64,000 nucleotides of DNA from Oscillospiraceae bacterium (GCA_021199855.1 JAJQHD010000009.1:4287-68286), one strand, 5' to 3'. Numbered from the stretch's first letter, positions 27,152-52,409 are shown. Numbers and translations: made by a program. Notes: generated by a model not told the origin, from the letters alone.

Positions 27152-28621
27152 TTAGCTGAAATCAATAACCGTCCCCTCAACCATCTCTCCGAGCACATTT
27201 ACAAAGTAGAAGTAATCCACCTGGTCGAGGTCAATGAGCACTGCCCATTGGCGGATATAGGTTTTGGTGCCATCGTCTGTCGGGGTAAGACCGTCTACGA
27301 TTCCAGTGTATTGCCAACCGCCGTCGGTGACGACTTCGCTTCCGTCCTTCATGACGGCGACTATGTTGAACATATGCTTTTCAGTGGCTACTGTGGCATC
27401 AATGGTGTAGTTCACGCCGAACTCAGAAACAGTGAATCCCGAAACTCCCTCAATGCCGGTGTCGATGCTGACGTATGTAGCATCTGCAACATCAACCGTG
27501 AAGTCAATGGTCCAGGGACCGCCGATAAAGACCTGGTTGCCGTCTTCGTCGTAATAGAAAATCTTACCCATTGTGAGCGAGCAAATCAGGGCATCGACAT
27601 CATCGCCAATGGTGCTGTAGTCGGCATCGAAGAGTCTGTAGTATGCGCCGTCCTCAACCCACTCCCAGTCATTCTTAGTTCCATAAGCCGCCATGTTTGC
27701 GTTATCGATGTCGAAGATAATGCTCTTGAAGTACCATTCCGCACCTGAATCCAGCATCTCCATAAAGCTCTCGCCTTCAACCTTGACGAGGAAGTACATA
27801 TCGTTCTTACTTGCCATAGCAGAATCTACAGTAACTGTGATGTCCGACTCAATAGTGCCGGAGGCGTCTATCTCCTGAGCGGAGTTGGTTGTCTGGCTAT
27901 CGGTGGTATCTTCACTCACATCAACCGTGAAGTCAAAGCTCCATGAGCCGTTGATGACCACGTCTTTATCTTCTTCGTCGTAGTTGGAATGAAGTGCACC
28001 CATGCTGAGAGAGCAGTTAAGCGTAGTGACGTCCTCGGGCAGGGTATCATAACTGCATTCCCAGAGCCAATAGTAAACGCCGTCCTCTTCGTAGTGCCAG
28101 TCAATATGGCTGGCGTAAGCGGCGACCTCGGCATTTTTTATGCCAAAGTAGAAATGCTCGAAGTACCAGTTTTCGCCCTCGACCAGCACATCCTGGAGGC
28201 AGTCGCCCTCCATTCTGAGGAGGAAGTACATTTCATTCTGGCTCGCCATTGCAGAGTCGATGGTGACGGTTATTTCGTTTGAAATCTGGCTTGCATCTAT
28301 CTCTTGACTGAATCCGTCGATAACCTCAAGCTGACCCTGAGACATTTCTTCACCGGTGAGCTCTTGCCATCTGCCCTGGAAGAAGCTTGTCAGGCTGTTG
28401 CTGGCAGCTGCAAACCCTGCCCCCATAAGAAGCACAGCCGCAATCACTACAGCAAGCACTACCGGTAATCTATTGTGTTTTTTCTCCATAATTACGTTTT
28501 CCTTTCCCGCCTTGGTGTTTGCCAAAGCATAAATTCTGTCACTGCTGACGGCGGGGGCTTTTTTGAGCCGGATTTTCTCCTCGCCGTAGCTGTCGAGAAG
28601 GTCGCTATAAAGTTGTTTCAC
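27152..28621 (-). CDS. anti-sigma factor-like membrane protein with an internally duplicated ectodomain
   Basis: Same N-terminus and TM helix as 25398..26405. Two homologous blocks of about 133 aa (EIDASQISNEITVTIDSAMASQNEMYF... and EIDASGTIESDITVTVDSAMASKNDMYF...). Confidence 0.7.
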   Translation of the reverse strand: MKQLYSDLLDSYGEEKIRLKKAPAVSSDRIYALANTKAGKENVIMEKKHNRLPVVLAVVIAAVLLMGAGFAAASNSLTSFFQGRWQELTGEEMSQGQLEVIDGFSQEIDASQISNEITVTIDSAMASQNEMYFLLRMEGDCLQDVLVEGENWYFEHFYFGIKNAEVAAYASHIDWHYEEDGVYYWLWECSYDTLPEDVTTLNCSLSMGALHSNYDEEDKDVVINGSWSFDFTVDVSEDTTDSQTTNSAQEIDASGTIESDITVTVDSAMASKNDMYFLVKVEGESFMEMLDSGAEWYFKSIIFDIDNANMAAYGTKNDWEWVEDGAYYRLFDADYSTIGDDVDALICSLTMGKIFYYDEDGNQVFIGGPWTIDFTVDVADATYVSIDTGIEGVSGFTVSEFGVNYTIDATVATEKHMFNIVAVMKDGSEVVTDGGWQYTGIVDGLTPTDDGTKTYIRQWAVLIDLDQVDYFYFVNVLGEMVEGTVIDFS

Positions 28622-44564: not shown

Positions 44565-44918
44565 ATGGGCTTGAAAACCGATCTGCAAACCTTAAAAACC
44601 TTTTCCGACAACCCCTATGACGCAAAATACCGCCCGAAAAAGGAAATGATAAAGCTCTATATCCGGCTTCAGGTGTGGCTTGTCCTGCTCCTGGGGTTCT
44701 CCGCCCAGATTTATATAATCGTCACAGGACCGCTGTCCATCTATTGGATAGTAATGTACTGGCGTTCCCGTGAGTACTGGAAGGACCTCGGCTGGAAGAT
44801 GAGATATTACTACCTTCCCACCATCCCGGTGTTTATATTCGGAATGTTCCTCTGCATCCAGCAGTACTTCATCACAGGGATAGAGTGGTTTGTGAACAAG
44901 TTTATGTTCTATATATAG
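44565..44918 (+). CDS. hypothetical small membrane protein
   Basis: 117-aa ORF with 3 hydrophobic helices, starting 7 nt after the MFS stop. No recognisable motif. Confidence 0.45.
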   Translation: MGLKTDLQTLKTFSDNPYDAKYRPKKEMIKLYIRLQVWLVLLLGFSAQIYIIVTGPLSIYWIVMYWRSREYWKDLGWKMRYYYLPTIPVFIFGMFLCIQQYFITGIEWFVNKFMFYI

Positions 44919-44978
44919 CATATAAATATGCAAAAAATTCCTCTTGACAAAGAGGAAAAGATGGCATATAATAATGAC

Positions 44979-45081
44979 ATGAGGAGACGAAACTGTTGCA
45001 GCAGTTTGGGGTTCAACCTCTAAAATTCAAGAACTTGAAGATTGACCGCCAACCGCTAGACTATGTTGCGGTTATTTCTTT
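44979..45081 (+). ncRNA. predicted antisense sRNA (type I antitoxin candidate 1)
   Basis: TTGACA (44944-44949), a 17-nt spacer, then TATAAT (44967-44972). Terminator AACCGC-N11-GCGGTT followed by ATTTCTTT (45051-45081). Antisense to the toxin 3' UTR and its last codons. Confidence 0.55.
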
Positions 45082-45158
45082 GCCTGGAAAACTCCGATGA
45101 CTCCGAAGATAACAACGGCGAGCAGATTAAGGAGTCCGAGAACTTCTAAAACTGACAC
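45072..45158 (-). CDS. 28-aa hydrophobic peptide (type I toxin candidate 1)
   Basis: GGAGGTG lies 5 nt before GTG 45158. Peptide MSVLEVLGLLNLLAVVIFGVIGVFQAKK, TAA at 45074-45072. Its own TTGACA-17-TATAAT promoter is at 45243-45215 on the minus strand. Confidence 0.55.
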   Translation of the reverse strand: MSVLEVLGLLNLLAVVIFGVIGVFQAKK

Positions 45159-45289
45159 GTTATCACCTCCTTCTAAAAAAGAAGAGGTTTACCATCACTC
45201 CTCATGTCATAAGCATTATATCACGACCAAAACATCTTGTCAATAAAAACCGGCAGAGCTTTCTCCGCCGGTTTTCTCGTTGGCATATT

Positions 45290-47293
45290 TTAGTTTGCAC
45301 TCACAATCCCATAATACGCCTCCGACGTAATCTTATACACGACAGTATACACCACGACCACAACCGCAAGGCACGCTGCAGTTACTCCCAGGAACAGCCA
45401 GGTATTCATGAAGCCGCACATCTTGAGCATTTGAATCATAATCGGCGAGGCGAAGGCGATATGCACCGCCGCCATCACGACCGGCAGGAGGAAGACCGAA
45501 AGCATCTGCGAATTGATGCTCTTTTTTATCTCCGCCCTGGTCATCCCGACCTTCTGCATTATCTCGAACCGTGAGACGTCCTCATAGCCCTCCGAAATCT
45601 GCTTGTAGTAGATGATGAGCACCGCCGAGAGGACGAACATCAGGCTCAGGAATATCCCGAGGAACAGGAGCCCACCGAACAGACCGTAGTAGTCGGAGCG
45701 GTTCGCGGCAAGACTGTCGCAGCTTATATAATAATTTATGCCTGTGTTATAAAGGGCAAACACTTCTTTTTCGAGTTCTACACCATGTCTGCCGAAATAT
45801 GATCTCTGTTCTGATTCGCTGAGATTAGTAACGTCAAAACCGTACCACCACATCCTGTAGATATAAATCTCGTTTCCCCTGTCGCCGAGCATCTCAAAAA
45901 TCGGGTTGAATACGTCCAGATTGTCGACGACGATAATGAGCATTCCGTAAATGGTGCGCTGAAGCGGGCAAAAAGTCGGATATTCTATCTCAGATTTGAC
46001 GGCGAAGGTGCCAAGCTTGTCGATATAAATTTCGGACATATTTCCGCTTTCAGAGTAGAGTAGAACCTCGCCGCTTCCGAGAGTTTCGCTCGAACCATTC
46101 AGCCGGTTATAGGTGTCTATATCGAAGACGCAGACCTCGACGTAGTCGTCATCCGTATAGAGATAATCGAGTGCAAGGTTACCATCGGTAAAAATACCGT
46201 TCGTCATGATGTATTCATATTCGAGCTCGTTTTCAATTTCAAGGTCGTCGTCTATCGCAAGGTTCTTGACAACCTCCTTCTGTTCATCGGTGACTTCTTT
46301 GTGAGTTCCAAATTGGACGATTAAATCTCTCGGATAGAAATCTTCGAGGATGTCCTCAATTCCCATCATAATGCTTGAAGTAGACGAGAGCATAACGAGA
46401 ACAGCGGTCAAAAGAATACAGATTGAGGCGAGACCTGCGCCGTTGCGTTTCATGCGGTAGGTCATCGACGAGACGGAGACAAAGTGATTCGGCTTGTAAT
46501 AGTAGCGCTTCGACTTCTGCATGATTTTGCACATCAGGACGCTTCCCGACATGAACAGCATATACGTCCCGACCATGACGAGAACGGCGGCTAAGAGAAA
46601 TCCCATCATCATCGCCATCGGGTTTTCAAGCGTCAGGGCGAGATAGTAGCTGAAGCCTAAGATGACAGCTCCGAGAAGACCGAAGAACCAGTTTGCCTTC
46701 GGCGGCTTTTCGCCCATATTCTCGCTCTTGAGAAGCTCAATCGGGTTCGTCAGACGCACTTTAAGCAGTGAGAAAACAAACAGGAGTAGAAATATTATCG
46801 CAAATAAGAGTGCCGTTTCGGGGATAGCCTGCCAGGCAAGCTCTATCGTGAATGTCACGTCTCCCGAAATGAGATGAACGAGCACCAGCTCCGCAAGCTT
46901 GTAGAGGATGATTCCGAGAACGATTCCGCCGACAATCGCAGTTCCGGCGGTGAAAACGTGTTCCCAGATGAGAATACGGGCGATGTTGTGCTTGCTCATT
47001 CCCAATACATTGTAAAGACCAAATTCTTTCTGCCTGCGTTTCATGAGAAATGAGTTCGTGTAGAAAAGAAATATCGCCGCAAAGAGGGCTATGACGCCTT
47101 TTCCGAGTTCGAGGAGCGACTGCGCCGCATCTCCGCCGGACATCAGTCTTATCACATCCGATTCCGAAAGGGAAGTGATTATAAAATAGAGCATCACCAT
47201 GCCGATGCAGGCTAAAATGTGTGGGATATAGAGCTGTCGGTTGCCCTTGATGCCGTTCATTGCAAGGCGACGGTACAGACCACGCTTTTTCAT
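45290..47293 (-). CDS. BceB-type ABC permease (10 TM helices, large extracellular domain)
   Basis: 667 aa with FtsX domains at both ends and a domain of about 200 aa between TM7 and TM8. Overlaps the ATPase gene stop. Confidence 0.85.
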   Translation of the reverse strand: MKKRGLYRRLAMNGIKGNRQLYIPHILACIGMVMLYFIITSLSESDVIRLMSGGDAAQSLLELGKGVIALFAAIFLFYTNSFLMKRRQKEFGLYNVLGMSKHNIARILIWEHVFTAGTAIVGGIVLGIILYKLAELVLVHLISGDVTFTIELAWQAIPETALLFAIIFLLLFVFSLLKVRLTNPIELLKSENMGEKPPKANWFFGLLGAVILGFSYYLALTLENPMAMMMGFLLAAVLVMVGTYMLFMSGSVLMCKIMQKSKRYYYKPNHFVSVSSMTYRMKRNGAGLASICILLTAVLVMLSSTSSIMMGIEDILEDFYPRDLIVQFGTHKEVTDEQKEVVKNLAIDDDLEIENELEYEYIMTNGIFTDGNLALDYLYTDDDYVEVCVFDIDTYNRLNGSSETLGSGEVLLYSESGNMSEIYIDKLGTFAVKSEIEYPTFCPLQRTIYGMLIIVVDNLDVFNPIFEMLGDRGNEIYIYRMWWYGFDVTNLSESEQRSYFGRHGVELEKEVFALYNTGINYYISCDSLAANRSDYYGLFGGLLFLGIFLSLMFVLSAVLIIYYKQISEGYEDVSRFEIMQKVGMTRAEIKKSINSQMLSVFLLPVVMAAVHIAFASPIMIQMLKMCGFMNTWLFLGVTAACLAVVVVVYTVVYKITSEAYYGIVSAN

Positions 47294-48054
47294 TCTCCGG
47301 CACCTCCCTTACTCAGCATGGTGAGGGTGTCGGAAATCTTCTGATAAAGCTGTTCGTCACTCTGTCCGCCGCGGTAGACCTGATGGAAAACGACGCCGTC
47401 CTTGATGAATAAGACCCTGTTCGCATGGCACGCCGCCTTGACCGAATGGGTGACCATAAGAATCGTCTGCCCACAGGAATTTACTTTCGAGAAGAGGTTT
47501 AAAAGCTCGTCGGTGGCACGGCTGTCGAGCGCACCCGTCGGCTCGTCCGCTAAAATAATTCTCGGTTCTGTCACGAGTGCCCTTGCAACCGCCGCCCTCT
47601 GCTTCTGACCGCCGGAGACTTCGTAGGGGTATTTCTTTAAAATGTCCGAAATCCCCAGTAGCTCCGCAATCGGTTCGAGCCGCTTGAACATCTCCTTATA
47701 GGACATTCCTGAAAGAACCAATGGCAAGTAGATATTGTCTTCAAGAGTGAAAGTGTCCAGCAGATTGAATTCCTGAAAGACGAAGCCCAAGTTATCCCGA
47801 CGGAAGGTCGCCATGTCCTGCTCGTGGACTTTAGAAATATCTTTTGCATCTAAGATTACCTGCCCGCCGGTTGGCTTGTCAAGGGCGGCAAGGATATTGA
47901 GAAGTGTCGTCTTTCCCGAGCCGCTTTCGCCCATGATGGCGACATATTCGCCCTGCTCAACCGAGAAATTGACGTTTTTGAGCGCCTCGACGCTAGCCCC
48001 TCCCATGCGGGAAGTATAGACTTTCTGCAAATTTTTAACTTGTAGTAGTGGCAT
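47290..48054 (-). CDS. BceA-type ABC ATP-binding protein
   Basis: GESGSGKTTLLN, VSGGQKQR and ILADEPTGALD. Confidence 0.95.
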   Translation of the reverse strand: MPLLQVKNLQKVYTSRMGGASVEALKNVNFSVEQGEYVAIMGESGSGKTTLLNILAALDKPTGGQVILDAKDISKVHEQDMATFRRDNLGFVFQEFNLLDTFTLEDNIYLPLVLSGMSYKEMFKRLEPIAELLGISDILKKYPYEVSGGQKQRAAVARALVTEPRIILADEPTGALDSRATDELLNLFSKVNSCGQTILMVTHSVKAACHANRVLFIKDGVVFHQVYRGGQSDEQLYQKISDTLTMLSKGGAGE

Positions 48055-48152
48055 AAGATTTCTCCTTTACTTTTGTTACCTCGATTATAGCAAAAGAAGA
48101 ACCCATGAATCCATCGATTTCCCTTACAGTTTTCTTACATTTTTGTAAGATT

Positions 48153-49061
48153 TCAATTTGCTTGGACGTGTTTTTTGGAGAGATTCAGCCGTATAGTCGT
48201 GCCCTTGCCGAGCTGAGATTCCGCCGAAATCTCATAACCCAAATCGTCGCAGATTCTCTTGCAGAGATAAAGTCCGATTCCGCTCGCCTTCTTGTCCGTC
48301 CTGCCGTTATAGCCGGTGAAGCCCTGGTCGAAAATACGGGGCAAATCGTCCCCGGCAATCCCGATTCCGGTGTCCTTTATTGCGAGAACCTGCCCGGGTT
48401 CCATGAAGATTGAAATGCTCCCAGACGGCGTGTATTTCAAGGCGTTTGATAGCACTTGTTCGATGACAAACGAGAGCCATTTTTCATCTGTAAGAACCGC
48501 CTCCCGCACCGGCTTGTAGATAAGTTGAATTTTGCGGGCAATAAATTCTCCCGAAAACTTCCTAACGCAGGACCTTATGATGCTATCTAAGTCGCACTCG
48601 GCAAAAACATAGTCGGTGCTCTCTGAGTCGAGCCGAAGATAGGTCATGACCATGTCGGCGTAGCTTTCGATTCGGTTGAGGTCTGCACCAAGCTTTCTGC
48701 TTAAAGCGCTGTCCTCGCCCTGCAAACTAAGACGCATACTGGCGATCGGCGTCTTAATCTGGTGCGCCCAGACACTGTAATAGTCCATTCTCTGCCGGGA
48801 TTTCGCCTTTTCCGAAGAAATCATCTCCGTCAGTCTCGAAATCTTATTTTCGAGTTCTGAAATCTTCTCACACTGCTTCTTATACTTTCTGTAATCGAGC
48901 GCAAGATAAGCAATTACCAACAGTAATCCCAGCCCTATTGGGTAAGCCACCGCCGCAATCGGAAGCCCATAAAGTGCAAAGCTCACACAGAGCATTGCAA
49001 AAATCAGGACGTAGAGTGCAAGAAATGTGATTTTTGATTTTATGTAATTCCAGAATTTCAT
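48153..49061 (-). CDS. intramembrane-sensing histidine kinase (BceS-like)
   Basis: Two N-terminal TM helices with almost no extracellular loop. H-box VWAHQIKTPI, plus N and G boxes (NALKYT, DTGIGI, GIGLYL). Confidence 0.9.
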   Translation of the reverse strand: MKFWNYIKSKITFLALYVLIFAMLCVSFALYGLPIAAVAYPIGLGLLLVIAYLALDYRKYKKQCEKISELENKISRLTEMISSEKAKSRQRMDYYSVWAHQIKTPIASMRLSLQGEDSALSRKLGADLNRIESYADMVMTYLRLDSESTDYVFAECDLDSIIRSCVRKFSGEFIARKIQLIYKPVREAVLTDEKWLSFVIEQVLSNALKYTPSGSISIFMEPGQVLAIKDTGIGIAGDDLPRIFDQGFTGYNGRTDKKASGIGLYLCKRICDDLGYEISAESQLGKGTTIRLNLSKKHVQAN

Positions 49062-49062
49062 G

Positions 49063-49767
49063 TCAGTCTCCCAGAGGTTGCGGGCGGATAATATCCGCCC
49101 CTACAGAATATCCGACGCCGTGCTTCGTAGTGATGAAATCTTCAAGTCCCAGAGCGTCCAGCTTGCGGCGAAGCCGATTGATATTGACGGTCAGGGTGTT
49201 GTCGTCGACGAAGCTGTCCGTTTCCCAGAGTCTCTGCATCAGCCTCTCCCGGGAAACGGTTTTGCCCTTGCTTTCAAGAAGCGTGAAGAGAATCCGGTAT
49301 TCGTTTTTGGTGAGGTCAATCTTTTGCCCGCCGAAAACTGCGCTCGAATCCTCAGTCCTGAGACTCAACCCACGGTGTGAGAGAACCGGGCTTTCGGTGT
49401 AGTTGTAGCTCCGGCGGAGAAGTGCCTGCACTTTCGCCGTCAGCACGCTCATGTCGAACGGCTTTGCGATGAAGTCGTCGGCACCCATGTTGACAGCCAT
49501 GACGATGTTTAAGTTGTCCGACGCCGACGAGATGAAGATAATCGGCACGTTTGAAATCTTGCGAATCTCCTCGCACCAGTGGTAGCCGTTGTAAAAGGGA
49601 AGCATTATGTCGAGAAGCACGAGCTGGGGCTGTACTTCTGCAAATTCTCCGACAATATCAGAGAACTTCGTCGCCACCCGGCACTCGAAGCCCCATTTTG
49701 TCAGCTCCGCCGCCACGCCCTCCGCAATGCTTCTGTCGTCCTCGGCTATATAGATTTTGTAAGTCAA
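49063..49767 (-). CDS. OmpR-family response regulator (BceR-like) with a repeat-encoded C-terminal tail
   Basis: Receiver domain (YIAEDD...LLDIMLP) plus winged helix (...TKHGVGYSV). The last ~12 codons (GADIIRPQPLGD) are encoded by the family B hairpin. Confidence 0.9.
   Translation of the reverse strand: MTYKIYIAEDDRSIAEGVAAELTKWGFECRVATKFSDIVGEFAEVQPQLVLLDIMLPFYNGYHWCEEIRKISNVPIIFISSASDNLNIVMAVNMGADDFIAKPFDMSVLTAKVQALLRRSYNYTESPVLSHRGLSLRTEDSSAVFGGQKIDLTKNEYRILFTLLESKGKTVSRERLMQRLWETDSFVDDNTLTVNINRLRRKLDALGLEDFITTKHGVGYSVGADIIRPQPLGD
49081..49104. repeat. family B hairpin copy inside the response-regulator 3' end
   Basis: CGGGCGGATAATATCCGCCCCTAC. Compare with 27124-27147 and 27077-27104. 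Confidence 0.8.
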
Positions 49768-50657
49768 ACTCTCACCCCCATAATTTTGTCAAAATACTCA
49801 AGAATCTCTTTCAGCTCCTGACAGTCCTCCGACTCCTTCACCTTTTCCTCATCCTTATAGTAAACAAACATCGAGTACTGGCAGAAGGCGGAGATGGTGA
49901 TGTCTTGCTGGAATTTCTGCCTGTCGACCGTGAACAGCGGATTTTTGCTCATTTCTTCGTAGTAGGTTCTGAGAAACGCCTTCGCAGATTCCGGGGAGAT
50001 GTAGCGCTTGCCATCCCCATAGCCGACGAATGAAAACCGCCCTAAATCCAAGAAATAGGGGAGAATGTCGGCATATGTCCAGTCGATGAGCCAGGCGGTC
50101 TTGCCGTCCAGGAGTGCGTTTATCGGCAGAAAATCGTCGTGGACAAGAGTCCGTGGTGCCGAAAAGAACCGGGCTTCGATTTTCTCAAAAATGCCGTCAC
50201 AGCCGGGAAAATAGTTTCGGGACTTCTCCCAGAACCGAAGGACTTTTCTTTCAAAATAGCTCCTGCAACCGTCCGGGTTGGTGCCGGTTCCGAGATAATA
50301 GCTCTGAATTTTTGCAAGCTCCCTGCCGACAAGCCCCGCTTCCTCGGGAGAACAGTCTCTCGAGTCCGACCCATCAATATACGGCATAGTCACCCAGCAG
50401 TCGTCACCGTTCTGAAAGCTGGAGAGAATCTCCGGCACCGAAAAGCTGTGTCCGGCAAAGTATTTCCCGAACTTTTCATTGTCCCGGTCGGATTTTTTGA
50501 GCACGAAGTTGTCATCAAGCAGAAACACATCATAAATCTTATTCAGCCGGCTGTCGACAAATCTCCGGACAGAATCCTCCCCGGAAACCCCGGCTTTCTC
50601 AAATACCGGCGCAAATTCAGCCCATTCTTCGGCAGTCAGCCTGCGGTTTTCGTTCAT
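49764..50657 (-). CDS. APH/choline-kinase-family phosphotransferase
   Basis: LVHDDFLPINALLD (HxDxxxxN catalytic loop) and LIDWTYAD. Its stop overlaps the response-regulator start. Confidence 0.8.
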   Translation of the reverse strand: MNENRRLTAEEWAEFAPVFEKAGVSGEDSVRRFVDSRLNKIYDVFLLDDNFVLKKSDRDNEKFGKYFAGHSFSVPEILSSFQNGDDCWVTMPYIDGSDSRDCSPEEAGLVGRELAKIQSYYLGTGTNPDGCRSYFERKVLRFWEKSRNYFPGCDGIFEKIEARFFSAPRTLVHDDFLPINALLDGKTAWLIDWTYADILPYFLDLGRFSFVGYGDGKRYISPESAKAFLRTYYEEMSKNPLFTVDRQKFQQDITISAFCQYSMFVYYKDEEKVKESEDCQELKEILEYFDKIMGVRV

Positions 50658-50733
50658 AGCGTGATTCTCCTATAGCTTTTGGAAGTCAAAATTTCCTCTT
50701 GACAAAGAGGAGAAAGTGTCATATAATAAAAGT

Positions 50734-50847
50734 AGCGAGAGGGTTGCCTGAACCGGTAATTCAGACAACAAGGTCACTCTCCGAACAATAATGTTATGAG
50801 AAAGTGGAGCTGTTTTTGACCGTCAGGTCAAGGACAGCTATTTCTTT
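50734..50847 (+). ncRNA. predicted antisense sRNA (type I antitoxin candidate 2)
   Basis: TTGACA (50699-50704), a 17-nt spacer, then TATAAT (50722-50727). Terminator AGCTGT..TGACC-GTCA-GGTCA..ACAGCT followed by ATTTCTTT (50808-50847). Confidence 0.55.
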
Positions 50848-50927
50848 GAGCTATTGCCGATGGTAATGCCCAAATTGATAGCCGAAATCAGCAAACCCAG
50901 TAGTAGAATCACTGTTGAAACGTCCAT
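50838..50927 (-). CDS. 29-aa hydrophobic peptide (type I toxin candidate 2)
   Basis: AAAGGAG RBS and ATG at 50927. Peptide MDVSTVILLLGLLISAINLGITIGNSSKK, TAG at 50840-50838. Its own TTGACA-17-TATAAT promoter is at 51007-50979 on the minus strand. Confidence 0.55.
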   Translation of the reverse strand: MDVSTVILLLGLLISAINLGITIGNSSKK

Positions 50928-51067
50928 GAGCATCACTCCTTTCCGTTCGGAAAAGGGTGACCGCCTCTCGCTATGCGTATTATATCATATCTCAAAAACC
51001 ATGTCAATAAAAATCGCACCATGCCATTTGGTGCGGTTTTTCATATTTTCTCTTGCATTTCCCCTGA

Positions 51068-52249
<1,182 letters not shown>

Positions 52250-52254
52250 GGGGA

Positions 52255-52409
52255 AACCTCTCAGTCGCCTTCGGAAGTTCGCTTGCGAACTTCAACGCTC
52301 ACCCTTAAAAGGGGAGCCAGTAGTGCTAGTCACAAAAAGGCTCCCCTAATTTAGGGGAGCTGGCAGCCACGAAGTGGCTGACTGAGAGGTGCGTCCCCAT
52401 AGGGGACGC
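52255..52409. repeat. composite hairpin repeat (family A, inverted double unit)
   Basis: ACCTCTCAGTC, GAAGTTCGCTTGCGAACTTC, CTCACCCTTAAAAGGGGAGCC, spacer, GGCTCCCCTAATTTAGGGGAGC TGGCAGCCACGAAGTGGCTGAC TGAGAGGT, GCGTCCCCATAGGGGACGC. Confidence 0.85.

What the first reader, a model, noticed from the sequence alone, without database searches (positions are those of the whole stretch)
44932..51041. The BceRS-AB / APH-like cluster is bracketed by the two homologous type I TA-like modules in direct orientation
Module 1 ends 15 nt from the bceB-like stop (45290). Module 2 begins 30 nt from the APH-like start (50657). The 5.4-kb five-gene resistance-type cluster lies exactly between two direct repeats of about 340 bp with the same organisation. 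These flanking modules could stabilise the segment by post-segregational killing. They could also allow its deletion or amplification by homologous recombination, or they could mark the borders of an acquired island. No integrase or transposase is present.
Basis: inference. Interest (0 to 1): 0.6.

Follow-up and report, generated by a model that had tools for sequence, protein, structure and literature searches.

The report
Toxin-antitoxin pair brackets variable resistance islet
Two small toxin/antisense-RNA gene pairs do sit at both ends of a peptide-resistance gene cluster, but they are divergent relatives at the edges of a long-standing variable spot in the chromosome, not the matching ends of a recently acquired or excisable island.

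Summary
Module 1 (44932-45275) and module 2 (50687-51041) have the same architecture and the same orientation, and they lie 15 nt and 30 nt from the five-gene Bce-type/APH cluster.

They are not near-identical repeats. They belong to two subtypes, A and B, of a type I toxin-antitoxin-like family found in 11 of the 41 sampled species of an uncultured Oscillospiraceae genus. BLAST detects only two shared blocks (42 nt at 88% and 38 nt at 76%), and the longest identical run is 19 nt.

Comparison with ten congeners shows that the orf117-tgt interval is a hypervariable accessory and defence hotspot.
- Three species have one type A module there and nothing else.
- One species has one type B module there.
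- Four species have bce plus APH at the site: three with one module, one with none.
- In three species the bce block lies at other loci without modules.

The bce tree follows the flank trees, and GC and GC3 match the flanks. The cluster is therefore old cargo of this site, not a foreign island.

The genome's junctions look like short-homology or illegitimate joins, and the module type has been swapped at the toxin promoter. I infer that the pair stabilises the interval as two addiction modules that probably cannot neutralise each other. Recombination between them now is unlikely.

The scan had already noted this module family on other DNA (e1-3988729, e1-4104306).

The parts
44565..44918 (+). 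orf117, a conserved 117-aa membrane protein. It forms the left fixed border of the variable interval.
   Evidence: ORF. No Pfam or NCBIfam hit. Orthologous at 81-94% in all ten congeners compared.
44932..45252 (.). Module 1, a type A type I TA-like module.
   Evidence: It is homologous to the single module of the empty-site species up to 45252.
44944..44972 (+). Antitoxin-RNA promoter of module 1, a 12/12 consensus match. Its -35 lies in the loop of the palindrome 44938-44957, which on the minus strand is the toxin-mRNA terminator.
44978..45083 (+). Predicted antitoxin RNA of module 1, about 105 nt. It ends at hairpin 45051-45074 followed by a T-rich tail. It is antisense to the 3' end of the toxin ORF and to the 3' UTR.
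   Evidence: The ends are inferred from the promoter and terminator, not mapped.
45072..45158 (-). Toxin ORF of module 1, MSVLEVLGLLNLLAVVIFGVIGVFQAKK, with SD GGAGGTGAT.
   Evidence: The ORF is conserved in 13 type A copies, and variation is highest at third codon positions.
45215..45243 (-). Toxin promoter of module 1, a 12/12 match with an extended TG.
45253..45299 (.). Joint between module 1 and the bce block. It holds a terminator hairpin (within 45250-45275) and the last three bceB codons. It has no counterpart in the empty-site modules. It shares a short microhomology (AACCG/ACCGGCA) with the sequence downstream of bceB in G043 and G044.
45290..47293 (-). BceB-type permease, 667 aa, with two FtsX domains.
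47290..48054 (-). BceA-type ABC ATPase.
48153..49061 (-). Short BceS-like histidine kinase. The best NCBIfam match is SapS, below the curated cut-off.
49063..49767 (-). OmpR-type response regulator. Its start overlaps the APH stop by 4 nt.
49780..49786 (.). Breakpoint between the bce homology block (45300-49780) and the APH homology block (49786-50657). The last five APH codons are encoded by the response-regulator leader.
   Evidence: G043 has the same tight junction.
49764..50657 (-). APH-family (PF01636) kinase-like gene. It lies directly downstream of the module 2 toxin terminator, and no recognisable promoter was found between them.
50687..50990 (.). Module 2 body, a type B type I TA-like module.
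   Evidence: It is 84-90% identical to type B copies in G021, G010, G003, G045 and G046.
50699..50727 (+). Antitoxin-RNA promoter of module 2, a 12/12 match.
50733..50848 (+). Predicted antitoxin RNA of module 2, about 115 nt, with a 14-bp terminator at 50808-50839.
   Evidence: Fold z-score -4.4.
50838..50927 (-). Toxin ORF of module 2, MDVSTVILLLGLLISAINLGITIGNSSKK. Its SD AAGGAG lies inside a hairpin.
   Evidence: Variable sites by codon position are 6/5/17.
50979..51007 (-). Toxin promoter of module 2. The type B body meets the locus-specific -35, terminator and tgt flank within its spacer, at about 50985-50995.
51009..51041 (.). Terminator on the tgt side. It is orthologous in all species that have a module next to tgt. 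In G044 a 14.5-kb serine-recombinase element is inserted in its loop.
51113..52249 (+). tgt (queuine tRNA-ribosyltransferase). It forms the right fixed border of the variable interval.

Best explanation
**What the two modules are.** They are divergent paralogues, type A (module 1) and type B (module 2), of a type I toxin-antitoxin-like family found in 11 of the 41 sampled species of this genus.

**How each module is built.**
- A strong promoter on the minus strand makes a toxin mRNA of about 280 nt.
- The 5' end of that mRNA pairs with its own 3' UTR.
- Its Shine-Dalgarno sequence is paired in the predicted fold, in a local hairpin in module 2.
- It encodes a 28-29-aa transmembrane peptide with a Lys-Lys tail.
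- A convergent, equally strong promoter on the plus strand makes an RNA of about 105-115 nt. This RNA is antisense to the last roughly 100 nt of the toxin mRNA, including the 3' partner of the closing helix.

**Where they sit.** The modules occupy the two edges of the orf117-tgt interval. In this clade that interval is a long-lived hotspot for accessory and defence genes. The Bce-type operon and the APH-like gene are old, vertically inherited cargo of the site. A module next to tgt is the usual resident of the site.

**What is special here.** This genome carries a second module on the orf117 side. The arrangement is a mosaic made by local rearrangements. These include a short-homology join at 45253, a tight response-regulator/APH junction at 49780-49786, and a type A to type B body swap inside the toxin promoter.

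**Inferred function.** Each module makes loss of its own DNA costly. The stable toxin mRNA would outlast the antisense RNA. The two antisense RNAs differ in sequence and should not neutralise each other's toxin. Any deletion that removes either end of the interval would then be selected against, including a crossover between the two modules.

**Shown versus inferred.** The anatomy, the conservation, the comparative layout and the breakpoints are shown. Expression, toxicity, stabilisation and the order of events are inferred.
For: **Architecture.**
- The toxin-mRNA folds have a 5'-3' closing helix in both the minimum-free-energy and centroid structures, with z-scores of -3.9 and -6.8.
- A motif of at least 9 nt is shared at the 5' ends of both RNAs in 24 of the 28 modules that have both promoters. 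It is specific to each type: A GACATGAGGAG, B AGCGAGAGG, C AGCAAGAGGG.

**Coding.** The ORF is conserved in all complete copies. Variable sites at codon positions 1, 2 and 3 number 15, 9 and 36.

**Family and distribution.**
- This genome has five copies.
- Module sequences were found in only 11 of 41 species of the genus.
- The exact palindrome pattern found only uncultured-genome records, nine titled Oscillospiraceae or Ruminococcus.

**Hotspot.** In congeners the interval holds AAA_14/DUF4143 ATPase, PDDEXK_2, Fic, YhcG, ParE/RelB, N6-methylase and BsaWI/Dcm genes, plus a serine-recombinase mobilisable element.

**Old cargo.** The bce block is at this site in five species, its tree is congruent with the flank trees, and composition is the same as the flanks.

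**Breakpoints.**

**Type swapping and mosaicism.**
- Type swaps occur at the same locus in different species: tgt locus, A against B in G045 and this genome; C41-like locus, A2 against B.
- Type A copies show mosaic patterns.

**Literature.** Type I TA systems stabilise prophages and other mobile regions in Clostridioides difficile and Bacillus subtilis (PMC7699646, PMC6563280). A 5'-3' long-distance interaction locks the AapA1 toxin mRNA (PMC5416894).
Against: - No transcript, toxicity or stability data exist for any member of the family.
- Rfam, Pfam and NCBIfam give no hit, so the type I TA assignment rests on architecture alone.
- In the module 1 antitoxin region the predicted RNA fold is not better than shuffles (z = -1.5).
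- The history is unresolved. The sister species G044 has an ATPase gene where module 1 sits, yet the orf117/module 1 junction is shared with the more distant empty-site clade. At least one lateral or ectopic exchange must therefore be assumed.
- Trees are midpoint-rooted and use only locus-linked genes.
- A deletion confined to the genes between the modules would not be penalised by flanking addiction modules.
Confidence: 0.6

Rival explanations
1. This is a module-bounded cassette. The conserved promoter blocks of the modules act as portable homology. A circle carrying module, bce and APH excised and re-entered by a Campbell-type crossover with a resident module. The segment can still be deleted, amplified or moved between the few module loci of the chromosome.
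For: - The empty site in G010, G021 and G046 is exactly a hybrid of the module 1 left part and the module 2 right flank.
- The APH/antitoxin-promoter junction is shared by this genome and G013 and, with a more diverged spacer, by G044, although the module bodies differ.
- The order module A-bce-APH in this genome is a circular permutation of bce-APH-module A in the sister species G044.
- APH relocated to a second locus in the G010/G021/G045/G046 clade, and there it lies beside a module in G021, G045 and G046.
- Module pairs 3-7 kb apart recur: C47 in this genome, G043 and G046.
Against: - The longest identical run between module 1 and module 2 is 19 nt. From general knowledge, this is below the usual minimum for RecA-dependent exchange.
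- The left joint at 45253 is a microhomology join, not a module-module crossover.
- The bce block at other loci has no modules nearby.
- No species has the unit at a second site.
- Four species keep bce and APH at this site with one module or none.
- There are no target-site duplications and no recombinase.
Confidence: 0.15
2. The link is regulatory rather than stabilising. Module 2 supplies transcription. Read-through from its consensus toxin promoter, past a weak terminator, drives APH, the response regulator and the kinase. Module 1 and its terminator insulate the 3' end of the operon. The bracket is therefore a transcription unit boundary.
For: - No promoter-like site lies between the module 2 terminator (7-bp stem, AAUUUUGA tail) and the APH start.
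- The response-regulator start overlaps the APH stop.
- A TTGAAC-17-TATAAT promoter upstream of the regulator is visible in G021 and G013 but absent here.
- The same toxin-terminator/APH junction is conserved in G013 and, more loosely, in G044.
Against: - The consensus scan can miss promoters.
- G043 has the same regulator/APH junction but no module.
- This reading does not explain the toxin ORF under purifying selection.
- It does not explain modules at loci without co-oriented downstream genes, such as C41.
Confidence: 0.15
3. The juxtaposition is coincidence. The modules are selfish intergenic elements that settle at a few permissive sites, and they have no functional or historical relation to the cluster between them.
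For: - A second pair in this genome brackets core genes (ylxM, ffh, rimM, trmD).
- The modules occupy a handful of conserved intergenic loci whatever the neighbouring genes.
Against: - Two pairs within 7 kb among five copies in 2.3 Mb is unlikely by chance (about 5e-4).
- Modules and module fragments lie at several rearrangement breakpoints.
- In eight of eleven species the APH-like gene has a module within about 0.1 kb, at either of two loci.
Confidence: 0.1

Closest known systems
bsrG/SR4, txpA/RatA, bsrE/SR5 and yonT/SR6 type I TA systems of Bacillus subtilis
   Same: - Toxin and antisense genes are convergent and overlap at their 3' ends.
- The toxins are 28-60 aa with one transmembrane helix and a charged (Lys) C-terminus.
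- They lie in dispensable chromosomal regions, where stabilisation is proposed (PMC6563280).
   Different: - Pfam and NCBIfam detect no similarity.
- The modules here are not in prophages.
- Here the antisense 5' end repeats the toxin-mRNA 5' end, which implies a closing 5'-3' helix. I do not recall that feature for the Bacillus systems (own knowledge).
Clostridioides difficile type I TA systems (CD0977.1-RCd11, CD2517.1-RCd8 and others)
   Same: - They occur in Clostridia and are convergent overlapping pairs.
- The toxin has a hydrophobic N-terminus and a Lys-rich C-terminus.
- They are multi-copy families located in prophages and next to CRISPR arrays.
- Maintenance of mobile elements has been shown experimentally (PMC7699646, PMC5961336, PMC6563280).
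   Different: - The C. difficile toxins are 34-59 aa and were not compared with these peptides directly.
- No case is described of two heterotypic modules flanking a resistance operon.
- The present family is found in only part of an uncultured Oscillospiraceae genus.
hok/Sok of plasmid R1 and aapA1/IsoA1 of Helicobacter pylori
   Same: The full-length toxin mRNA is closed by a long-distance pairing between its 5' and 3' ends, and this hides the ribosome-binding region (PMC5416894). The same kind of helix is predicted here.
   Different: In those systems the antisense RNA targets the 5' region, and activation needs 3' trimming. Here the antisense RNA covers the 3' end, including the 3' strand of the closing helix.
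LDR (ldr/rdl) and QUAD (ibs/sib) repeats of Escherichia coli
   Same: These type I TA loci were first seen as dispersed or tandem direct repeats of a few hundred bp in intergenic regions, with several diverged copies per genome (PMC2887945; own knowledge).
   Different: They are a proteobacterial family with a different arrangement. They are not reported as brackets of an accessory gene cluster.
TA-stabilised chromosomal islands (mosAT in SXT, TA cassettes in the Vibrio superintegron)
   Same: Addiction modules inside variable DNA prevent large deletions (cited in PMC6563280).
   Different: Those are protein (type II) systems on elements with an integrase. Here the modules are RNA-regulated, sit at the borders, and no recombinase is present.

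Membership tests
Type I toxin-antitoxin system (generic) | Small hydrophobic membrane peptide ORF with its own promoter and ribosome-binding site | tested here: met
   ORFs of 28-32 aa with a GGAGG-type SD sit behind 12/12 promoters. They are conserved in about 28 copies, with an excess of third-position variation.
Type I toxin-antitoxin system (generic) | Cis-encoded antisense RNA gene overlapping the toxin mRNA | tested here: inconclusive
   A convergent consensus promoter plus an intrinsic terminator define an antisense unit of 105-115 nt.
Type I toxin-antitoxin system (generic) | Peptide toxic when expressed, and neutralised by the RNA | not testable with these tools
   This needs inducible expression in a laboratory host.
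TxpA/BsrG-type toxins and other curated type I toxin families | Sequence membership in a curated toxin family, or the RNA in Rfam | tested here: not met
   No Pfam or NCBIfam family was found at E <= 10 except chance-level hits. No Rfam match was found at E <= 1.
Genomic island or composite element bounded by direct repeats | Near-identical flanking repeats able to recombine | tested here: not met
   Identity is about 50-68% depending on the alignment. BLAST detects only blocks of 42 and 38 nt. The longest exact run is 19 nt.
Genomic island or composite element bounded by direct repeats | Integrase or transposase, or a tRNA or other attachment site with a target duplication | tested here: not met
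   None was found in the window segment. In G044 a serine-recombinase element does use the adjacent terminator loop, but it is unrelated to the cluster.
Genomic island or composite element bounded by direct repeats | Foreign composition, or a phylogeny incongruent with the core | tested here: not met
   GC is 0.495 against 0.488 and 0.504. GC3 is 0.59-0.69 against 0.61-0.68. The bce tree is broadly congruent with the flank trees.
Genomic island or composite element bounded by direct repeats | Presence or absence of the whole unit at an otherwise conserved site | tested here: inconclusive
   A single-module empty site exists in three species (four counting the type B copy in G045). Intermediate states exist as well (bce+APH with one module or none; APH alone). 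The unit is never found elsewhere.
Bce-type antimicrobial-peptide sensing and detoxification module | BceB-like permease with two FtsX domains, ABC ATPase, short kinase without a recognised sensor domain, and OmpR-type regulator in one cluster | tested here: met
   Pfam finds FtsX twice in a 667-aa protein, plus ABC_tran, HisKA/HATPase_c in a 302-aa kinase, and Response_reg/Trans_reg_C. The best NCBIfam hit for the kinase is SapS, 9e-59, below its cut-off. The substrate is untested.

The most novel reading that the evidence does not exclude
The modules form a recombinase-free cassette system. Their near-invariant consensus-promoter ends serve as docking homology. Accessory genes (APH, bce, defence genes) and the toxin/antisense bodies themselves would then be shuffled among a handful of fixed chromosomal module loci. 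Heterotypic toxin pairs would enforce retention of whatever lies between them.
Probability: 0.1. Interest if true: 0.75.

Novelty: new member of a known kind. Interest (0 to 1): 0.4.

Why it matters
The work shows how a plausible "island bounded by repeats" reading changes once relatives are compared. The resistance operon is old cargo of a chromosomal hotspot. The bracketing elements are members of an undescribed type I TA-like family of uncultured Oscillospiraceae.

If the heterotypic-pair idea holds, it gives a simple and testable rule. Two addiction modules that cannot neutralise each other, placed at the edges of an unstable interval, would protect it against deletions from either side and against crossover between them.

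The family also offers type-specific covariation between the two promoter-proximal ends. That makes a hok/AapA-like mRNA lock testable in Firmicutes.

Tried and rejected
- **Rfam scan of 44-52 kb:** nothing found.
- **Pfam and NCBIfam on five toxin peptides:** nothing meaningful.
- **The look-up of sequencing runs:** Coverage, split-read and circle tests, and RNA evidence, could not be obtained.
- **Same-species strain comparison by exact-protein look-up of orf117, tgt and APH:** only one other sample (SRR15221303) was found. It has the same arrangement, so there is no within-species polymorphism data.
- **Recent horizontal acquisition:** rejected on composition and tree congruence.
- **Misassembly across repeats:** rejected. 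The modules are too divergent to confuse an assembler, and independent contigs agree.
- **The shared 9-13-nt motif at both module ends as transposon-like terminal inverted repeats:** rejected as the main reading. The motif changes with module type on both sides together, which fits RNA pairing better than a common transposase site.
- **The 41-aa C41-type ORF as a simple pseudogene:** left open. The variant frame is conserved in six species.
- **Two paper-reading runs:** failed on term syntax and were repeated.

Full report
**1. Observation**

- On the minus strand lie a 667-aa permease with two FtsX domains (45290-47293), an ABC ATPase (47290-48054), a 302-aa histidine kinase (48153-49061), an OmpR-type regulator (49063-49767) and a PF01636 APH-family gene (49764-50657).
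- The kinase's best NCBIfam match is the Bce-like SapS, below its cut-off.
- The cluster is flanked by orf117 (44565-44918) on the left and tgt (51113-52249) on the right.

Module 1 (44932-45275) and module 2 (50687-51041) share one architecture in the same orientation.
- A plus-strand TTGACA-17-TATAAT promoter has its -35 in the loop of the palindrome TCCTCTTGACAAAGAGGA.
- A convergent minus-strand TTGACA-17-TATAAT promoter is preceded by a terminator hairpin.
- Between the promoters, on the minus strand, a strong SD is followed by a 28- or 29-aa hydrophobic ORF ending in KK.
- These four promoters are the only 12/12 matches in 6.8 kb.

The homology is real but weak.
- The global alignment score is 57.5, against -7.9 +/- 6.7 for shuffles.
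- BLAST finds only a 42-nt block at 88% and a 38-nt block at 76%.
- The longest shared exact word is 19 nt.

Logan contigs from SRR15221303 reproduce orf117-module 1-bceB and regulator-APH-module 2-tgt at 100% identity. The layout is therefore not an assembly artefact.

**2. What the modules are**

The genome (2.31 Mb, 58 contigs) has five copies.
- Two lie in the window (C28).
- One lies on C41 (type A2).
- Two lie on C47 (type C, 86% identical to each other).

Across ten congeners I collected about 29 copies. They fall into three types, each with a conserved peptide.
- Type A: MS[VI]LEV[LI][GA]LLNL[LI]AVV[IV]FGVI[GA][VI]FQ, followed by (A/T)KK or NNNKK(K/N).
- Type B: MD[VI][SE]T[VMI]I[LQ]LLGLLISA[IV][NE]LGI[TK]IG[NSQ][SN]SKK.
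- Type C: MTVSEVFELLQLLAV[VM]IFGILGLG[HR]S[ED]SGKKK.

Variable sites at codon positions 1, 2 and 3 number 15, 9 and 36 over the four groups. This indicates a translated ORF under purifying selection.

The toxin-strand RNAs fold well below shuffles, with z-scores of -3.9 and -6.8. In both the minimum-free-energy and centroid structures, a helix closes the 5' end onto the 3' UTR. In module 2 the SD lies in a local hairpin.

That helix corresponds to a DNA feature. The first transcribed 9-13 nt after both promoters of a module are the same sequence.
- Twenty-four of the 28 modules with both promoters share a run of at least 9 nt.
- The sequence is specific to each type: A GACATGAGGAG, B AGCGAGAGG, C AGCAAGAGGG.
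- The two sites lie about 230 nt apart, so the match is not a by-product of the overlap. It means the antisense RNA covers exactly the 3' strand of the closing helix.

No Rfam, Pfam or NCBIfam family matches.

Module sequences were found in only 11 of 41 species of the genus. The exact palindrome pattern found only records of uncultured genomes, nine of ten titled Oscillospiraceae or Ruminococcus sp..

By architecture this is a type I TA-like family. It is closest in layout to the 3'-overlapping Bacillus systems, and it has a hok/AapA1-like mRNA lock (PMC6563280, PMC5416894). Expression and toxicity are untested. The scan had already noted the family on other DNA (e1-3988729, e1-4104306).

**3. 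Comparative layout of the orf117-tgt interval**

| Species | Content between orf117 and tgt |
|---|---|
| G010, G021, G046 | Type A module only |
| G045 | Truncated orf117, then type B module only |
| G044 (sister species, 87-94% identical) | AAA_14/DUF4143 ATPase, bceBASR, PDDEXK_2 gene, APH, type A module, then a 14.5-kb element |
| G043 | ATPase, bceBASR, APH (same tight regulator/APH junction as here), N6-methylase and specificity genes; no module |
| G048 | ParE/RelB, bce, Fic, APH, type A module |
| G047 | 69 bp, bce, YhcG nuclease, APH, type A module |
| G013 | Fic, APH, type A module; bce is elsewhere |
| G003 | YhcG, APH, BsaWI-type endonuclease plus C5 methylase; no module |

The 14.5-kb element in G044 carries a large serine recombinase, a Mob_Pre relaxase, a primase and an FtsX/ABC transporter. 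It is inserted in the loop of the tgt-side terminator.

In G021, G013 and G045 the bce block lies at other loci, with no module within 3-4 kb.

The interval is therefore a hotspot for addiction, defence and resistance genes. A module next to tgt is its commonest resident (9 of 11 species). This genome is the only one of the eleven with modules at both ends.

**4. Is the cluster an acquired island?**

The evidence says no.
- Trees of the left flank, the right flank, the bce block and APH agree on (this genome, G044) and on (G010, G046, G021, G045).
- The bce tree is broadly congruent with the flank trees.
- The species that carry bce at this site span the tree. By parsimony, bce at this site is ancestral and the empty site is a derived loss or relocation.
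- GC is 0.495, against 0.488 and 0.504 for the flanks. GC3 is 0.59-0.69, against 0.61-0.68.

**5. Breakpoints in this genome**

- **Left junction.** The orf117/module 1 junction is the same as in the empty-site species.
- **End of module 1 homology.** Module 1 is collinear with their single module up to 45252 (…TTGTCAATAAAAACC).
- **Unique joint.** Positions 45253-45299 hold a terminator and the last three bceB codons, and the empty-site modules have no counterpart. The join shares only AACCG/ACCGGCA with the sequence downstream of bceB in G043 and G044.
- **bce block.** bce homology runs 45300-49780.
- **APH block.** APH homology starts at 49786, so the last five APH codons are read from the regulator leader.
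- **Missing promoter.** A TTGAAC-17-TATAAT promoter upstream of the regulator, seen in G021 and G013, is absent here.
- **APH/module junction.** The junction between APH and the antitoxin promoter is shared with G013 and, with a more diverged spacer, with G044, although their module body is type A.
- **Right junction.** The type B body gives way, within the toxin-promoter spacer at about 50985-50995, to the -35, terminator and tgt flank. These are orthologous to the same parts in the single-module species. G045 shows the same type B/locus-flank join.

Mosaicism among copies is clear. The antitoxin region of module 1 is identical to that of the G044 tgt-locus module, while its toxin tail (AKK) matches copies at other loci.

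The type at a given locus differs between species. At the C41-like locus it is A2 in six species and B in three. Exchange among copies has therefore happened, and the conserved promoter blocks are the likely crossover points. The order of events cannot be fixed. The sister species has an ATPase gene where module 1 sits, yet the left junction is shared with the more distant empty-site clade.

**6. Controls on bracketing**

On C47 the two type C modules lie in direct orientation 6.7 kb apart. They enclose ylxM, ffh, rimM, trmD and other housekeeping genes. Similar pairs occur in G043 and G046. A pair of modules in direct orientation is therefore not a signature of an island.

Pairing itself is not random. 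For five copies in 2.3 Mb, two disjoint pairs within 7 kb have a chance probability of about 5e-4.

**7. Mechanism, most likely reading** (confidence 0.6)

Each module is a self-contained addiction unit. This genome has a heterotypic pair at the edges of an unstable interval.

The antisense RNAs of types A and B differ throughout the overlap. Losing either module should therefore leave its toxin mRNA unopposed. This penalises deletions entering from either side, and also a crossover between the two modules. A homotypic pair would not have that last property. This step is inference.

A second consequence is possible. The scan found no promoter between the weak module 2 terminator (7-bp stem, AAUUUUGA tail) and APH. 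Read-through from the consensus toxin promoter may feed APH and the two-component genes. This is also inference.

A historical Campbell-type or duplication route through the modules remains possible (confidence 0.15).

**8. Limits**

- Only one other sample of this species was found.
- Trees are midpoint-rooted and come from locus-linked genes.

**9. Verdict**

The interval is variable, and single-module empty sites exist. It is not an acquired or excisable island bounded by recombining repeats.
- Novelty: a new member of a known kind, namely a type I TA-like family at a chromosomal hotspot.
- Interest: 0.4.

Noticed in passing
G000 contig C47: 4789-5068 and 11740-12062 (part in L003): Two type C modules, 86% identical and in direct orientation, lie 6.7 kb apart. 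They bracket the core ylxM-ffh-rimM-trmD region plus an XRE regulator and a histidine phosphatase. Similar type C pairs 3-3.6 kb apart occur in G043:C15 and G046:C1.
   Followed up: partly
G000 contig C41: 150414-150727 (L002): This type A2 copy has an insert of about 22 nt in the toxin ORF. The result is a 41-aa frame (MSVLEVLGLLNLLASGQWNIELCYHSE...) that is conserved in six species. The copy is flanked by a duplicated hairpin of about 25 nt (GACCAATCCATCTCGGGGCGGTT) and sits next to an AAA_14/DUF4143 ATPase gene. It could be an inactivated toxin or a new peptide.
   Followed up: partly
L032:13324 to L033:8862 (G044): A 14.5-kb integrative mobilisable element is inserted exactly in the loop of the tgt-side terminator, directly after the type A module. 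It carries a large serine recombinase, a Mob_Pre relaxase, a D5/CHC2 primase, an RNPP-type regulator and two FtsX permeases with an ABC ATPase.
   Followed up: partly
window 49764-50657 and loci L024, L025, L032, L035, L036, L038, L041: In eight of eleven species the APH-family gene has a module within about 0.1 kb. This holds whether it sits at the orf117-tgt locus or at a second locus that is empty in this genome (contig C2, about 27729-27781). Its orientation relative to the module varies.
   Followed up: partly
window 49063-49104: The response regulator is 8 aa longer than its orthologues, which end ...GYMVG or ...GYMVE in G044, G047 and G048. A 25-nt stretch here (about 49081-49105) matches repeat copies in locus L030 (G003:C14) at 96-100%.
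   Followed up: partly
window 52297-52392: A hairpin-rich repeat of about 95 nt downstream of tgt is multi-copy in this genome (C43 twice, C49, C17, C25) and is present in congeners.
   Followed up: no
G000 contig ends (C47:12077-12131, C28:68487-68541, C39, C29, C26, C22 and others): The same sequence of about 55 nt ends at least 13 contigs. It is probably the terminus of a multi-copy insertion sequence that breaks the assembly. One copy abuts the C47 module.
   Followed up: no
window 49767-49800 compared with L023:8200-8290 and L026:9280-9350: Orthologous bce blocks at other loci have a TTGAAC-17-TATAAT promoter upstream of the regulator. In this genome, and in G043, the regulator follows APH directly, with no such promoter.
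   Followed up: partly
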